This document shows, in pieces, positions 12,061-57,100 of a DNA stretch of 64,000 nucleotides. The position numbers are program-made. The first letter of the stretch is position 1. The number at the start of each line of letters is the position of its first letter. This DNA is from Octopus vulgaris (lineage: Eukaryota), in contig OX597821.1 of NCBI GenBank assembly GCA_951406725.2, forward strand, positions 70,370,001-70,434,000, read 5' to 3'.

Positions 12061-15000
12061 GTATGTATATACACACAGATAAGACAGAAGTAAATAATCA
12101 TTAAAATTTATTTAAATCTTAAATTATGCATTCAAATTAATTACATATAATAATGTAAATATCTTATATTTAGTAGAGATGCCCTTTGCATTTTTCGATT
12201 CAAGGATCCTATAAGACATTCTACTGCACAGATGTTGAATGTACTCTAGGAGAATTTCTTGCCAAGTTTCATGCAGTAATCTCAAAAGATCTGGCTTTCA
12301 GAATGCTTTGTTGTTCTTTTTATGAAGTGTCCTGTCCATTATGCCCCAGAGATGTTCAATCAGGTTCATACCCGGTGACTGGCTTGGCCATAGAAGCTTT
12401 TTAATGCCATTCTTTTCCAACGAATCTTGGCTCTTGCTAGCCATGTAACAAGGAGCCCCATCTTCAATAAATACAGAATCGTCTGGTTGGCAGCAACTTT
12501 TTAATGCCAATTTCTTGATCAAAGAGTCTCTAGACCCATTCCCGACCACTGTCAGAAAATACAGCAAATTTGGACTATTCAGAGAATATGATAGCGTCCT
12601 AAAGTGCTAGTGGCCACTCCATCATCTCACTGGCCTGATCCTTCCTCCAATTGGCATTGGATGGTTGAAGAAGTTGCTTCCTTCTTGCTGCTCTTCCATT
12701 GTAGCCAAGTTTGTGGAGATATCTGACAGCAGTTCTGGGACAGATATGAACTTGTTCTGCTATGTTAAATGTCTTGCAATGAGGTTCATCCTCCACATTT
12801 CACTTAATAAAGCAAAGGAACCTGTCAGAGGTCCCTGGTCAACCTAAGCAACGTTTTGCGTCATGTTTATTTACTTCTGTCACGTTTGTGTGTGTGTATA
12901 TATATATATATTTATATATCGTGTATAAAGGAGTGAATGGGAAACTTGGGCATACAATTATCTATAAATGATGTGATGGTTCTAAGTTAGAAGCTTTGAT
13001 TCCAGACTTCCATGACAAAAATATCCAGCTATGGGGAAGAAATACCTTACTTGGAAACAAGTGACTGCTGTTGACAGGAAGAGCATCCAATTATAGAAAG
13101 TCTGCCTCAGTAAATTCCCCTAAACACATGCAAGCATAGAAAAGGGTACATTAATTGATGATTATGATGCCTTATCCATAATTACCTTCACAAAATGCAG
13201 TTAATATTCTATGAGATTTGGATTATAACAGCTTCTAAAATAACAGAAACTGTTATCTGCAGATTGGCATCCATCGTGAAAACATTTGCCTAAAACTATT
13301 ATCATAGAACATGGTGCAAAATTGGATAGAAAGAAGAGACTTCTTCAAAGAATAAGTCTAGGCTTGGTTTCTTCACTTTTAAAACATGCTACAGTCCATT
13401 TCTTGACTTCATTGAATCCATGTCTTTAAAAGATGTCAAGCATCATGATTCTCCCCCTCTAAAAGCTTATTTCCTTTGGTCGTATGAGGTGGACGATTCA
13501 AAAGAACCTGATGAAACAGGACAATTCAGGGAACACCAAATTCTAGCTTGACATGGTCAGTTGCTCTTCCTAATTCCAACCAGATTACAGATTTGAAATC
13601 ATTTCCTACTCTACTACAAACAGATTTAGTGAAAAGCATTTATTTTTCAGACTCCTTTTATATACACTTGTATATTTAATCGAGTAAAATAAATTTCAAG
13701 AAATAGATAAAAACAAACAAAATAATTATTGTAAAAATAATGTTTTATTTACATGTTTGGTAAAGTTTATTTACAAGGTGAAATATATACTAAAATATAT
13801 TTTATACTTATATGAATATATATATATATAGAAAAGAATATTGACATGTCTGCTCATATTTACATATTTTAGTGCATATTAAATAATTACAAGTAGAATT
13901 TTTTTACATATACATGCAAACACATGCATATATAGAGGGGTGTCAAATATTCATGATGTAAAACAGTTCTGAAAATATATGTGAAAAATAAAATTTATCA
14001 ATTAAAACAGTGTATGTATATATATTTTATCAAAAGATCCATCATTATTTACAGATATAAATTCATGCATAAAGTTTAAAATGATATGGAATTAATATAT
14101 ACATATACATACAAGTCAATTTATTTACAAGTTGAGACTTTTTAAATTTATATATAAAAAATATAAACTACCAAAATGAAATTTCATATAGATATGGAAT
14201 TGATGTGACAATATTTACAAATATATATACGTATATTTATGTGAATAAACAGAACAATGAAGCAAGGAGATACAGAATTTATGATAAATACAAAAGATAT
14301 TAAATGAATATATACACATCATCTATATAAGCTTTGTGATGCGGATAGTTTTAAAATATATCTACATATAAAAAGAACCAAATCACACTTGGAATAAAGG
14401 AAATATAAATTCTTGCAGTGTAGTCTAATAATCCTTGTTGCTTTAGATTGTTGTAGGAAGAGGAGCACAATTCGAAAAGAGGTGCAACAAGTGAATGAGT
14501 GCTATTCTGAGGAATCACACAACCCACTAGAAATGACAGGTAAATTCCTCAGCAAAACAAATTCTACCATTATACAAATAGGAAGAACACTTTAGTCTAT
14601 ATTCCTCTTGATATCTAAAATGACAGCTTCCTTTCACCATTGAACTGTAGAGTCAGGATTTAGCCAGGATTAAACGCCTGCATCAATCATTATGTCGGTC
14701 CTCAGCACATATTTCATGGTAAGTCTGAAATAGAAAATAAAATACTCTTAGATATTATTTATTGATAATCTTACATATTTCATATATCACACATCATAAT
14801 ATGATCAGATTAAACAGATGCAATTTATCATAAAACATCTAAGCACACATTCAAAAATTTAACAGGGTAGTTAATGACAGTTATTAATTTCACCTTAATT
14901 ATTCCTAATTAATTGCTAATATAAGAAGAAGATGAGAAATTAGAGGAAAGAAGGATTGAGTCAATGACATCACCCACACAAATTAACTGCTAATTATTTT

Positions 15001-54100: not shown

Positions 54101-57100
54101 AAATAATGCGAATTGAGATCCCAGATAGTTTCACGCACACACACACACATTTCCCCCACTTTCCCTTGTATATGTATGATGTCTTTAATAAACAATTTCG
54201 TTCACCTTATATTTCAGAATGAACCAATGAAAGATTACAACGAATCAAAGATGGAAGTTAACACCAATCAAACAAAATGGAAGCTGTATAAACTTAAACA
54301 CGGTAATGAGCTGAAAGTGAAGTGCAGCCTCACGCCAATGTACCCTTCCGTATCTCAACAGAAGATGAGGAATATTTTACCAAATTTTGATACAACAAAC
54401 TTCACAACGTAAGTTCATTTCATCTTTCTTTCAATTATAATCTTTCTTAATCCACATCATAATTAACATATTTATTTATCTCTATTTGCATGAAACATAT
54501 TCTCAATCTTGACTAAACGACATTATTTTCTCTTTCAGTGTCTCTCAGTCACTCGTCCACAAACTTTACTCTGGGAAACAATGTTCGATTTGTGGTGATA
54601 GGAGATCCAGTATTGATAACGATCACATGGATGCACATTTCAGGGAAAACTCTTTTGCAAAGCACAGAAACTATTCCAAACACAGGCACTGGTACCTGCA
54701 AGAAGATTATGCTGAAGGTAAATCTAGGAATTATAAAAATGTTTGGTCAGTAATATTCTCTTATTTTTGTTGTTGTATATTGTCTACAGGCCAAAATAAG
54801 AAATTGTGTTGTAATATTTTGATTTGTCTCGTGGCGTTTTTTATGTGTTTTAATGTGATTATTATTATGGTTATTTTCCAGAAAACCCGTTTGAACTTCA
54901 ACTAAGAAAACACCAACAGAATAAGAAAAAGAATATTACAGGACCGACAAAACATTCTGGCAATGATGTAAGTATATCCGTTTCTAGTTTTATTTCTAGT
55001 TTGTTCTCCTCTAAGTTGTTGTTTTACTTTTAAATGTGTTACTTGAAATTTAAATATTCTAATGTTAAAATATATTCTAATTATAAATAAATACACACCT
55101 GTATTTAATATTGTAGGAATTCATAGAAATATTGTGAAATGTTATAAGTATTTATGCAGTAAGTACTGTAATATTTATGTGTTTATGCCTGTGTCCTCTC
55201 ACTTAGCTGTTCAGTGAAAACATTGTATATATTCAAAGTACCAGGATGAAGTACATATTGGTGTGGAGGTGATTGGTCACATATATTGATGGATATACTC
55301 CGGTATGGCCATATTCCCAGGATTAAAAGACTCTGTTCATTTCTGACACTTACCTCTGGCACTTTTATTCTTTAGCTTATTTTAGCCAATCTTGATGTCT
55401 TTCACTTATTGCAATTCCAAGTTACACATGATTGTGTATATCATCACCTTCCAGAATTATATCAGTCCATGTCTAGCATTACAATAAGGAGTGCGACAAG
55501 TAAATTCCTCTCCACAAATACCTGGGCCAATTCCTCTTTTAGTAATTGGTATAATTTATTTCAGATATTTCTATAGATTAGTGAATTCCAAGTTATTGTT
55601 CAACTCGGTTAATATGAATTTGCAGACACATAATTCATCCTGGCCGTAAATCTCTTATCATTTCTCTGTTTTTATTTTTTAATGCTGAAACAATCTTCTC
55701 TAATCTCTTCTGATTTCATGTTCAACAGGTATGTTTTGTGTGTAAAGAAAAGTTTACTGAATTCTTCAATCATGAAGATGGTGAATGGCAGTTGAATGAT
55801 GCCATTGATATAGATGGAAACGTAAGTCTTTCTTTTTTTTATTATTTCTATTTCCTATTTTATTAATCAAGTGAAAACTTGTTGGATCCTGCTTTAACAT
55901 TTTATTTTTTCCCAGAGTGATTAAAATAATTAGCAGTTAATTTGTGTGGGTGATGTCATTGACTCAATTCTTCTTTCCTCTAATTTCTCATCTTCTTCTT
56001 ATATTAAGAATAATTAAGGTGAAATTAATATCTGTCTTTAACTACCCTGTTAAATAAATGAATGTGTGCTTAGATGTTTTATGATAAATTGCATCTGTTT
56101 AATCTGATCATATCTAAGAGTATTTTATTTTCTATTTCAGACTTACCATGAAATATGTGTTGAGGACCGACATAATGATTGATGCAGGCGTTTAACCCTG
56201 GCTAAATCCTGACTCTACAGTTCAATGGTAAAAGGAAGCTGTCATTTTAGATATCAAGAGGCATATAGACTAATGTGTTCTTCCTATTTGTATAATGGTA
56301 GAATTTGTTTTGCTGGGGAATTTACCTGTCATTTCTAGTGGGATTGTGTGATTCCTCAGAATAGCACTGATTCACTTGTTGCACCTCTTTTCGAATTGTG
56401 CTCCTCTTCCTACAACAATCTAAAGCAACAAGGATTATTAGACTACACTGCAAGAACTTATATTTCCTATATTCCAAGTGTGATTTGGTTCTTTTTATAT
56501 GTAGATATATTTTTAAAATGGAGAGCATTATAAAACTATCCGTATCGCAAAGCTTATATAGATGAGTTGTATATATTCATTTAATGCCTTTTGTATTTAT
56601 ATAATGTGTGTATCTCCTTGCCTCATGGTTCTGTTTATTCTCATAAACATACGTATATATATTTGTAAATATTGTCACATCAATTCCATATCTATATGTA
56701 ATTTCATTTTGGTAGGTTATATTTTTTATAAATAAATTTAAAAAGTCTCAACTTGTAAATAAATTGACTTGTATGTATATGTATATATTAATTCCATATC
56801 ATTTTAAAACTTTATGCATGAATTTATATCTGTAAATAATGATGGATCTTTTGATAAAATATATATACATACAGTGTTTCAATCCATAAATTTTAATTTT
56901 CACATATATTTTCAGAACTGTTTTACCTCATGAATATTTTACACCCCTCTATATATGCGTGTGTTTGTATGTATATGTAAAAAAATTCTACTTGTAATTA
57001 TTTAATATGCACTAAAATATGTAAATATGAGCAGACATGTCAATATTCTTTTCTATATATATATTAATATAAGTATAAAATATATTTTAGTATATATTTC

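What the first reader, a model, noticed from the sequence alone, without database searches (positions are those of the whole stretch)
14683..56182. Amplified family of CID-less PCF11-derived zinc-finger genes hidden by splicing
Seen: four intact 8-exon genes plus four fragments; the ORF track shows only pieces, often in the wrong frame. Established: PCF11 (cleavage factor II with CLP1) is normally a single-copy, much longer protein in animals, with an N-terminal Pol II CTD-interacting domain (CID) and a C-terminal ZnF-Clp1-binding-ZnF module. Here only that C-terminal module is recognisable (exons 4-8), on a 448-aa protein with an unrelated N-terminus. Inference: a lineage-specific expansion of truncated paralogs that could act as decoys or modulators of 3'-end processing/termination, or as RNA-binding adaptors uncoupled from Pol II, plausibly tissue- or germline-restricted. 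I cannot confirm that it is undescribed.
Basis: partly seen in the sequence, partly recalled or inferred. Interest (0 to 1): 0.92.

Follow-up and report, generated by a model that had tools for sequence, protein, structure and literature searches.

The report
Amplified short PCF11-like genes in octopus
An octopus chromosome segment carries four intact and four broken copies of a short gene that keeps only the zinc-finger tail of the mRNA 3'-end factor PCF11; the copies look selectively maintained, but their function is untested.

Summary
The window holds four intact 8-exon genes (A 14683-18119 -, C 25126-28662 +, D 47743-51324 -, E 52682-56182 +) and four fragments. All internal splice sites are GT-AG. 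The CDS is 1347 nt (448 aa); copy E is 437 aa. All eight exon translations of copy A sit letter for letter in a public 448-aa Octopus vulgaris protein ("Hypothetical predicted protein"; UniRef "Pcf11 C-terminal domain-containing protein"). So the genes are already predicted, but I found no paper on them.

Residues 277-444 are homologous to the PCF11 ZnF1-linker-ZnF2 module (hhalign 99.8%, E 6.7e-28), and all eight zinc ligands are kept. No CID is present in the protein or in 515 ORFs of the window. The Clp1-interaction motif keeps the equivalents of R480 and W482 but not W489. The N-terminal ~276 residues have no detectable relatives and are predicted without confidence.

The copies lie in ~95%-identical segmental duplications, including an 11-kb head-to-head palindrome (D/E). 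Exons lack frame-breaking indels (0 seen, 9.0 expected) and pairwise dN/dS is 0.26-0.65, which argues for maintained coding genes. More distant paralogues exist in O. vulgaris and O. bimaculoides. Function (RNA binding uncoupled from Pol II; CLP1 binding doubtful) is inference.

The parts
14683..18119 (-). Gene copy A, intact, 8 exons, 448 aa. Exons: 18119-17714, 17598-17483, 17322-17089, 16686-16496, 16365-16187, 16020-15935, 15191-15099, 14724-14683.
   Evidence: Exon mapping. GT-AG sites and open frames, with exon 5 corrected. All 8 exon translations are exact substrings of the public protein P0001.
18638..21123 (+). Fragment B: 5'-truncated copy that starts inside intron 3. Exons 4-8 lie at 19100-19290, 19421-19598 (1-nt deletion, frameshift), 19765-19850, 20612-20704 and 21082-21123.
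   Evidence: The public 202-aa model P0002 reads the same frameshifted exon 5 and matches exon 4 at 61 of 61 residues.
25126..28662 (+). Gene copy C, intact, 448 aa. Exons: 25126-25531, 25647-25762, 25922-26155, 26650-26840, 26971-27149, 27316-27401, 28154-28246, 28621-28662.
47743..51324 (-). Gene copy D, intact, 448 aa, used as the reference copy. Exons: 51324-50919, 50803-50688, 50528-50295, 49770-49580, 49449-49271, 49106-49021, 48261-48169, 47784-47743.
   Evidence: The exon 7 ORF hits zf_PCFS4 at 9.3e-7 and Pcf11_C at 1.2e-5.
52682..56182 (+). Gene copy E, intact frame, 437 aa (33-nt in-frame deletion in exon 2). Exons: 52682-53087, 53203-53285, 53445-53678, 54218-54408, 54539-54717, 54882-54967, 55729-55821, 56141-56182.
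   Evidence: The exon 7 ORF hits zf_PCFS4 at 2.8e-7.
3092..4051 (-). Fragment F1: 3' end of a copy, made of exon 8 (3800-3841), part of intron 7 and the downstream region.
35816..36739 (-). Fragment F2: 3' end of a copy (exon 8 at 36488-36529). It is the duplicate of F1 within the 32.7-kb higher-order repeat.
32632..33406 (+). Fragment F3: upstream region plus the first 33 nt of exon 1 (33374-33406), cut off where a 128-bp satellite array begins.
46358..57563 (.). Head-to-head palindrome that carries genes D and E. The arms run about 46358-51726 and 52279-57563 and are 89-98% complementary piece by piece.
   Evidence: (10 inverted pairs).
51325..52681 (.). 1357-bp divergent intergenic region between the ATGs of D and E, presumed to hold the promoters. 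Each side has a trinucleotide microsatellite.
   Evidence: Coordinates. The microsatellites show up as homopolymeric ORFs. Promoter function is inference.

Best explanation
This is a young, Octopus-lineage family of protein-coding genes derived from the C-terminal 'zinc finger - Clp1 region - zinc finger' module of PCF11. The module is fused to a long N/Q/K/R/Y-rich N-terminus with no detectable relatives.

Shown:
- The 8-exon structure.
- Homology of residues 277-444 to the PCF11 module, with all eight zinc ligands kept (C331, C334, H345, H349; C406, C409, H438, C441).
- Absence of a CID.
- Amplification by segmental duplication, partly palindromic and 94-97% identical.
- Reading frames kept open against the indel and substitution pattern seen in the introns.

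Inferred:
- The proteins bind RNA through the paired zinc fingers, as the isolated human module does.
- They do so without being recruited by the Pol II CTD.
- They have lost or weakened the canonical CLP1 grip, because the W489 equivalent is missing and the linker is shorter.
- So they act as free RNA-binding modulators or adaptors rather than as alternative CF II subunits.
- The divergent pairing and high copy number would serve dosage.
For: Gene model. Copy A equals public protein P0001.

PCF11 homology:
- Pfam Pcf11_C at 7.7e-8 and 32.6 bits (cut-off 26.7) on residues 405-441.
- Exon 7 alone hits yeast Pcf11 structures 2nax and 5m9z at about 1e-3. The family profile hits them at 1.5e-5 and 2.7e-5.
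- Exon 5 alone found 17 proteins at E<=1e-3 among 1.84 billion. Of the 10 scanned with Pfam, 5 carry Pcf11_C or zf_PCFS4 downstream of the matched finger, and one of them also carries CID and Clp1_ID.
- hhalign of the octopus family against 7 PCF11-type modules gives 99.8%, E 6.7e-28, over 164 columns.
- The Atlas feature score is 0.94 to Pcf11_C/zf_PCFS4/Clp1_ID clusters.

No CID: and 0 of 515 window ORFs of 45 aa or more.

Selection, comparing exons and introns of the four intact copies:
- 1 exon indel event, in frame, against 13.1 expected from 22 intron events (P=2.8e-5).
- 0 frame-breaking indels against 9.0 expected (P=1.3e-4).
- Variable columns 56/1314 in exons against 120/2010 in introns (p=0.03).
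- Silent changes 20 of 55 against a neutral share of 0.23 (p=0.018).
- No nonsense change (P=0.04).
- Pairwise dN/dS is 0.26-0.65.

RNA binding by the isolated human module, and CLP1 binding by hPcf11 deltaN1339: PMC6239180, passages seen.
Against: No expression or protein evidence was available here. The public models come from a pipeline that mixes Iso-Seq, RNA-seq and ab initio prediction (PMC10700109), and I could not see which kind supports these genes.

The selection signals are moderate for substitutions (p about 0.02-0.04). Introns may also be more indel-prone than exons for compositional reasons. dN/dS for the closest pair, A-D, is 0.65.

Only ZnF2 is predicted with any confidence: AF2 mean pLDDT is 30.9, and only residues 396-443 exceed 50.

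Exon 5 and exon 6 alone found no PCF11 chain in the PDB. Pfam has no hit on ZnF1 or the linker.

R365 and W367, the equivalents of two of the three Clp1 contacts, are kept. CLP1 binding is therefore not excluded, and the 'CLP1-independent' step is the weakest part of this explanation.
Confidence: 0.6

Rival explanations
1. CLP1 decoy or alternative CF II subunit. The short proteins still bind CLP1 through the R-x-W motif. They would either titrate it away from canonical PCF11 or form a Pol II-uncoupled CF II-like complex that changes poly(A) site choice or termination.
For: The ZnF1-linker-ZnF2 order is kept, and R365 and W367 align with the Clp1 contacts R480 and W482 (PMC1761425). In human PCF11 the fragment that starts at ZnF1 is enough for stable CLP1 binding (PMC6239180).
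Against: The W489 equivalent is absent in 4 of 4 octopus family proteins, yet invariant in 7 of 7 other PCF11-type modules. There is no Pfc11_Clp1_ID hit at E<=1, and the family profile matches no PDB chain for the Clp1-binding peptide at E<=10. In P0001 the gap between the last ZnF1 ligand (H349) and the first ZnF2 ligand (C406) is 56 residues. In hPcf11 the annotated fingers are separated by 74 residues (1368 to 1443; PMC6239180).
Confidence: 0.2
2. Young, functionless duplicates. The copies would be by-products of segmental duplication in a satellite- and transposon-rich region, still intact only because they are recent, like the probable pseudogenes PCFS1 and PCFS5 of Arabidopsis.
For: Four of the eight copies are already truncated or frameshifted. 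The region is full of satellites and transposon remnants. Copy divergence is only 1.5-4%. dN/dS for the A-D pair is 0.65. The Arabidopsis precedent is in PMC10839035.
Against: Exons lack frame-breaking indels (0 seen, 9.0 expected, P=1.3e-4). There is an excess of silent changes and no nonsense change. Older paralogues at 26-51% identity, and an O. bimaculoides relative, keep both zinc fingers' ligands or ZnF1, so the family has persisted beyond this array.
Confidence: 0.12
3. Mis-modelled genes or assembly artefact. The true transcripts might include CID-coding exons outside the model, or the array might be inflated by mis-assembled haplotypes or palindromes.
For: The region is highly repetitive, with palindromes that are hard to assemble. 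I saw no transcript evidence.
Against: D and E are head to head with 1357 bp between their ATGs, and A abuts the inverted fragment B, which leaves no room for upstream exons. No CID match was found in 515 ORFs across all 64 kb. An in-frame stop lies 27 codons upstream of the ATG (the ORF 50887-51405). The copies differ in structure: a 33-nt deletion, a 1-nt deletion, and different flanks.
Confidence: 0.05

Closest known systems
Canonical PCF11 / yeast Pcf11 (CF II / CF IA subunit)
   Same: The C-terminal module is homologous. ZnF1 has the LYxGxQCxxCG...HxDxHFRxN motif. An R-x-W-Y motif follows it. The C-terminal ZnF2 is a C-x2-C...H-x2-C finger (Pfam Pcf11_C; PDB 2nax and 5m9z).
   Different: There is no CID and no detectable match to any other PCF11 region. 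The protein is 448 aa, whereas hPcf11 has domains annotated out to residue 1478 and a fragment to 1505 (PMC6239180). The ZnF1 loop is 5 residues shorter and reads HMDAH instead of HLDWH. The W489 equivalent is lost and the linker is shorter. The genes are multi-copy and palindromic.
Arabidopsis PCFS1 / PCFS5 (CID-less Pcf11-related genes)
   Same: Lineage-restricted, truncated Pcf11 relatives that lack the CID and sit beside full-length paralogues (PMC10839035, passages seen).
   Different: According to that paper the plant genes have no introns, carry many frameshift and nonsense variants, mostly yield non-stop RNAs, and are judged probable pseudogenes. The octopus genes have 7 introns, 3 of them inside the PCF11-like module, and show purifying constraint. 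They also carry an extra N-terminus of no detectable origin.
Older Octopus paralogues: P0003 (O. vulgaris, 488 aa), P0020 (O. bimaculoides, 584 aa, auto-named 'sex-determining region Y protein isoform X2') and P0019 (O. vulgaris, 453 aa)
   Same: Same architecture, and the same family signatures: HMDxHFR, loss of the W489 equivalent, and the C-terminal HEICxEDRxN tail. P0020 also keeps the exon-4-type motif.
   Different: Only 26-51% identical to P0001. They are encoded outside this window, with at most 63% identity to any window HSP. P0003 and P0020 have a His/Gln-rich N-terminus. The P0019 model lacks ZnF2.
Ampliconic palindromic gene families (for example on mammalian sex chromosomes; recalled, not looked up)
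   Same: Near-identical inverted arms carry head-to-head gene pairs, within higher-order duplications.
   Different: The arms here are about 5.4 kb and 89-98% identical, which is shorter and more diverged. No evidence on expression or chromosome type was obtained. The scaffold length equals the assembly N50 of 118.9 Mb with L50 of 9.

Membership tests
PCF11 (full-length orthologue) | N-terminal Pol II CTD-interacting domain (Pfam CID, PF04818) | tested here: not met
   No CID hit on P0001 at E<=1. None among 515 stop-to-stop ORFs of 45 aa or more across the whole window at E<=0.01. The head-to-head gene layout leaves no room for upstream exons.
PCF11 (full-length orthologue) | First zinc finger (LYxGxQCxxCG...H-x3-H) upstream of the Clp1 region | tested here: met
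   Exon 5 alone retrieves PCF11-type proteins. The ligands C331, C334, H345 and H349 are kept. hhalign covers this finger. The loop is 5 residues shorter, and the Trp of HLDWH is Ala.
PCF11 (full-length orthologue) | Clp1-interaction domain (Pfam PF11526), with conserved contacts R480, W482 and W489 in yeast numbering | tested here: inconclusive
   No PF11526 hit at E<=1. No PDB match for exon 6 or for the linker. The R and the first W are kept (R365, W367). The W489 equivalent is absent in 4 of 4 octopus proteins and invariant in 7 of 7 others. The three residues are taken from PMC1761425.
PCF11 (full-length orthologue) | C-terminal zinc finger (Pfam Pcf11_C, PF21936) | tested here: met
   P0001 residues 405-441 score 32.6 bits against a cut-off of 26.7. 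The family profile matches 2nax at 1.5e-5. AF2 pLDDT is about 70-74 here only.
PCF11 (full-length orthologue) | Forms CF II with CLP1 and binds RNA | not testable with these tools
This needs biochemistry.
CID-less Pcf11 relatives of the Arabidopsis PCFS1/PCFS5 type | Truncated Pcf11 relative lacking the CID | tested here: met
   PMC10839035.
CID-less Pcf11 relatives of the Arabidopsis PCFS1/PCFS5 type | Intronless gene with signs of decay (frameshifts, nonsense variants, non-stop RNAs) | tested here: not met
   There are seven GT-AG introns. No frame-breaking change occurs in the 4 intact copies, against 9.0 expected. RNA 3' ends were not testable.
Ampliconic palindromic gene arrays | Multi-kb inverted arms of high identity that carry the gene copies | tested here: met
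   Arms 46358-51726 and 52279-57563, 89-98% complementary. Higher-order repeat 3092-22783 against 35816-57850.
Ampliconic palindromic gene arrays | Germline- or testis-biased expression | not testable with these tools
   No expression data are reachable.

The most novel reading that the evidence does not exclude
Octopuses have turned the RNA-binding zinc-finger tail of an essential 3'-end processing factor into a separate protein family. It is uncoupled from both Pol II and CLP1 and carries a newly arisen disordered N-terminus with a duplicated KWKxYKxxxGNELKxK exon motif. One branch of the family is now being amplified in palindromes under selection for dosage. Such a pattern is usually seen for germline-expressed or conflict-driven genes, and here it could tune poly(A) site choice or RNA fate in a tissue-specific way.
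Probability: 0.2. Interest if true: 0.7.

Novelty: new variant of a known kind. Interest (0 to 1): 0.45.

Why it matters
PCF11 dosage is a known lever on poly(A) site choice and transcription termination. A selectively maintained, multi-copy protein that keeps only PCF11's RNA-binding zinc-finger module would be a natural experiment in separating that module from Pol II coupling and, probably, from CLP1. It is also a clear case of very recent, partly palindromic gene amplification in a cephalopod genome. If the copies are expressed in a restricted tissue, the family offers a tractable way to study lineage-specific control of mRNA 3' ends in octopus. If they are not expressed, it is simply a young duplicated gene family that public annotation already predicts.

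Tried and rejected
- Exon 5 and exon 6 alone against PDB sequences gave no PCF11 chain. The best exon 5 hits were von Willebrand factor at E 0.25, which I take as chance Cys-Gly matches.
- Pfam on the ORF pieces for exons 1-5 of copy D gave nothing beyond a sub-threshold MPM1 match (E 0.013, 16.3 bits against a cut-off of 25). I disregarded it.
- The N-terminus (residues 1-315) in the ESM Atlas gave no usable feature hit, and structure rows had TM of 0.30 or less.
- AlphaFold2 on a 5-row alignment reached mean pLDDT 30.9. This is too poor for a fold search, so none was run.
- Five of the 10 exon-5 hits scanned with Pfam (P0006, P0007, P0009, P0011, P0012) lack Pcf11 domains. They are repeat proteins or other zinc-finger proteins, and I set them aside.
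The five members of the P0001 cluster and their accessions stay unseen.
- I considered that the gene array might be cargo of a transposon. I found no evidence for this. The copy boundaries differ between copies and coincide with satellites or other repeats.
- I wondered whether the locus is sex-linked. The scaffold length matches the N50 scaffold, and the question was not pursued.
- ORFs at 4029-4370 (-) and 36793-37062 (-) looked retroelement-like to me, but Pfam found nothing, so I make no claim about them.

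
Full report
**Observation.** The window is AT-rich (GC 0.28-0.42) and has no N. I read copy D on the minus strand and derived eight exons:
- 51324-50919
- 50803-50688
- 50528-50295
- 49770-49580
- 49449-49271
- 49106-49021
- 48261-48169
- 47784-47743

They sum to 1347 nt, i.e. 448 codons plus a stop. Each exon was searched separately against the window with blastn. This found:
- four complete sets: A 14683-18119 (-), C 25126-28662 (+), D 47743-51324 (-) and E 52682-56182 (+);
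- one 5'-truncated set, B (exons 4-8, 19100-21123, +);
- two lone exon-8 pieces at 3800-3841 and 36488-36529 (both -);
- the first 33 nt of exon 1 at 33374-33406 (+).

All internal splice sites of the four complete copies are AG...GT and all exon frames are open (exon 5 of A was corrected by one base). Copy E has a 33-nt in-frame deletion in exon 2. Fragment B has a 1-nt deletion in exon 5.

**The joined step.** Window sequence was searched exon by exon. Whole-protein analyses used a public protein that a search returned.

**Already in public annotation.** A search with exon 1 alone returned a single longer protein, P0001. It is 448 aa and is named "Hypothetical predicted protein [Octopus vulgaris]" by NCBI and "Pcf11 C-terminal domain-containing protein" by UniRef. 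Its 90% cluster has five member sequences, all on one contig of 118,905,486 bp. All eight exon translations of copy A are exact, consecutive substrings of P0001. So the window is this O. vulgaris locus, and an independent pipeline reached the same exon model.

That pipeline combined Iso-Seq, RNA-seq, protein alignments and ab initio prediction (PMC10700109, passages seen). I could not see which evidence supports this gene. The paper gives 118.9 Mb as the scaffold N50 with L50 = 9.

A 202-aa public model, P0002, reads the same frameshifted exon 5 as fragment B and matches B's exon 4 at 61 of 61 residues. It is not identical to B throughout.

I found no paper on the family:
- 'PCF11' plus 'octopus': 0 papers.
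- 'Pcf11-like': 4 papers, none on cephalopods judging by title and abstract.
- A four-term search including 'cephalopod': none of the 8 listed papers (of 15 matching) holds 'cephalopod'.

**Relation to PCF11.**
- Pfam places Pcf11_C on P0001 residues 405-441 (7.7e-8, 32.6 bits, cut-off 26.7). zf_PCFS4 falls just below its cut-off (25.3 against 27). No other family appears at E<=1.
- Exon 7 alone matches the solved yeast Pcf11 C-terminal finger (2nax at 1.3e-3, 5m9z at 2.2e-3). A profile of five family proteins matches them at 1.5e-5 and 2.7e-5.
- Exon 5 alone, scored against 1.84 billion representatives, gave 17 proteins at E<=1e-3. I scanned 10 of the 17 with Pfam. Five carry Pcf11_C or zf_PCFS4 downstream of the matched finger, and one of these (P0014) also has CID and Pfc11_Clp1_ID. 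The other five are unrelated zinc-finger or repeat proteins.
- A profile-profile comparison of the octopus family (A3) with seven PCF11-type modules (A4) gave 99.8% probability, E 6.7e-28, over 164 columns, covering P0001 residues 277-444.
- The Atlas look-alike search of residues 316-448 agrees. The feature score is 0.94 to clusters with Pcf11_C, zf_PCFS4 and Clp1_ID. Structure TM is about 0.5 to PCF11 clusters.
- All eight zinc ligands are present: C331, C334, H345 and H349; C406, C409, H438 and C441.

**What is missing or changed.**
- There is no CID, either in P0001 or anywhere in the window. I listed 537 stop-to-stop ORFs of 45 aa or more and dropped 22 as low-complexity. Of the remaining 515, none matched CID at E<=0.01. 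Five matched zf_PCFS4/Pcf11_C, and these are exon 7 of A, B, C, D and E. Short CID exons under 45 aa would escape this scan.
- Genes D and E are head to head with 1357 bp between their ATGs, and A abuts the inverted fragment B. Upstream coding exons are therefore implausible.
- Noble et al. (PMC1761425, passages seen) name R480, W482 and W489 of yeast Pcf11 as the three conserved Clp1 contacts. In seven non-octopus PCF11-type modules these three columns are invariant. In the four octopus family proteins the R and the first W are kept (R365 and W367 in P0001), but the W489 position holds Ala, Gly or other residues. P0014 was left out by my pattern but is included.
- No Pfc11_Clp1_ID hit appears at E<=1.
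- The ZnF1 loop is five residues shorter, and HLDWH has become HMDAH.
- Residues 1-276 have no Pfam or Atlas relatives. They are rich in N, Q, S, R, Y and K; exon 1 has pI 10.2. AlphaFold2 models them without confidence: mean pLDDT is 30.9 and only residues 396-443 exceed 50.
- Exons 3 and 4 share a 22-residue motif, 13 of 22 identical (E 8e-9), at the same offset in both exons. This suggests an internal exon duplication.

**Family breadth.** Three word-indexed searches (exon 1 against longer proteins, P0001 whole, and a 3-sequence profile) found only four clusters:
- P0001;
- P0019 (453 aa, O. vulgaris, same contig, 45-51% identical, model without ZnF2);
- P0003 (488 aa, O. vulgaris, same contig, 26%);
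- P0020 (584 aa, O. bimaculoides, 88% identical to P0003, auto-named 'sex-determining region Y protein isoform X2').

P0020 also keeps the exon-4-type motif. None of the three more distant proteins is encoded in this window; the best HSP is at most 63% identical. So the architecture predates the array and is shared by two Octopus species. The 94-98%-identical copies here are a recent burst. I could not locate canonical PCF11 or CLP1 of Octopus, nor survey other cephalopod genomes.

**Locus architecture.**
- Self-comparison shows a higher-order direct repeat, about 3092-22783 against 35816-57850, at 95-97% identity. This makes A the counterpart of D, B of E, and F1 of F2. A-D is indeed the closest pair, at 1.5% divergence in exons and 2.1% in introns.
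- D and E form a palindrome, with arms about 46358-51726 and 52279-57563 that are 89-98% complementary.
- Relative to D/E, the A/B junction (18631/18638) lacks the palindrome centre and exons 1-3 of the plus-strand copy.
- C is a further copy, 94% identical to D in inverted orientation.
- Arrays of a 128-bp satellite flank the units. Tc1-like transposase remnants lie between them.

**Are the copies maintained?** I aligned the four intact genes from ATG to stop and compared exons with introns:
- Introns (2257 columns) carry 22 indel events. Exons (1347 columns) carry one, the in-frame 33-nt deletion, against 13.1 expected (P=2.8e-5).
- 15 of the 22 intron events are not multiples of three. That predicts 9.0 frame-breaking events in exons, and none is seen (P=1.3e-4).
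- Variable columns are 56/1314 in exons and 120/2010 in introns (Fisher p=0.03).
- Using the intron substitution spectrum as the neutral model, 0.23 of non-nonsense changes should be silent. The observed count is 20 of 55 (p=0.018).
- No nonsense change is seen, where 5.6% per change is expected (P=0.04).
- Pairwise Nei-Gojobori dN/dS is 0.26-0.65 (exon 2 was left out for pairs that include E).
- ZnF1 exon 5 has one amino-acid-changing codon among 59.

These results favour coding genes under moderate purifying selection. Two caveats apply. The counts are small, and introns may be intrinsically more indel-prone than exons.

**Mechanism.**
- Shown: a PCF11-derived double zinc-finger module on a CID-less protein, in multiple maintained copies.
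- From the literature (PMC6239180, abstract and passages): the isolated human ZnF-Clp1 region-ZnF fragment binds RNA at 100-200 nM and prefers G-rich RNA. A fragment that starts at ZnF1 co-purifies with hClp1.
- From the literature (PMC5737669, abstract only): the yeast fingers are not needed for CF IA assembly or for termination, but they are involved in 3'-end processing.
- Inference: the octopus proteins bind RNA through the fingers without CTD recruitment. Loss of the W489 equivalent and the shortened linker make canonical CLP1 binding doubtful. I therefore rank 'free RNA-binding modulator or adaptor' above 'CLP1 decoy', and both above 'functionless young duplicates'.

**Comparison and novelty.** By homology the family belongs to the PCF11 superfamily, but it fails the CID criterion and is inconclusive on the Clp1 criterion. 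It is therefore not a PCF11 orthologue. The nearest described precedents are Arabidopsis PCFS1 and PCFS5. These are CID-less, lack introns, and are judged probable pseudogenes (PMC10839035), and the octopus genes differ from them in having introns and showing constraint. I rate the family a new variant of a known kind. It is real, already predicted in public annotation, apparently unstudied, and of moderate interest until expression and binding are tested.

Noticed in passing
window 1-340, 1882-2228, 30045-31030, 33404-35069, 57630-58344: Arrays of a 128-bp satellite (2.7 to 13 copies, 83-90% matches) flank the gene units. One array cuts off fragment F3 at 33404-33406.
   Followed up: partly
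window 12301-12606 (-), 45199-45657 (-), 60271-60645 (+): Remnants of a Tc1/mariner-type transposase lie between the gene units and are duplicated along with them. Pfam DDE_3 scores down to 3.8e-9, and HTH_Tnp_Tc3_2 matches nearby ORFs.
   Followed up: partly
window 3092-22783 vs 35816-57850; 8874-12850 vs 64000-59939 (inverted): A higher-order segmental duplication with a period of about 32.7 kb (95-97% identity) contains the gene pairs A/B and D/E together with a block of about 9 kb with no gene match. A third, inverted copy of part of that block sits at the right end of the window.
   Followed up: partly
window 18313-18655, 24644-24932, 51518-51800, 52199-52487: A trinucleotide microsatellite, visible as poly-N, poly-L, poly-S or poly-Y ORFs in several frames, lies about 200-500 bp upstream of each intact gene's ATG. 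It is mirrored on both sides of the D/E palindrome centre. A promoter role is possible but untested.
   Followed up: no
window 50295-50528 and 49582-49770 (-), and the same exons in the other copies: Exons 3 and 4 share the motif N-x-x-KWK-x-YK-x-x-x-GNELK-x-KS at the same offset (13 of 22 identical, E 8e-9). The motif recurs in the O. bimaculoides relative P0020. It has no known family.
   Followed up: partly
protein P0020 (O. bimaculoides), not in the window: The RefSeq-style name 'sex-determining region Y protein isoform X2' sits on a protein whose only Pfam domains are zf_PCFS4 and Pcf11_C. The name looks like an automatic misnomer, perhaps triggered by the His/Gln-rich stretch.
   Followed up: no
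window 5357-5883, 38034-38552, 44711-45159, 62682-62988: Long TA-rich microsatellites, read as 'YIYIYI' ORFs in several frames, occur within the duplicated inter-gene blocks.
   Followed up: no
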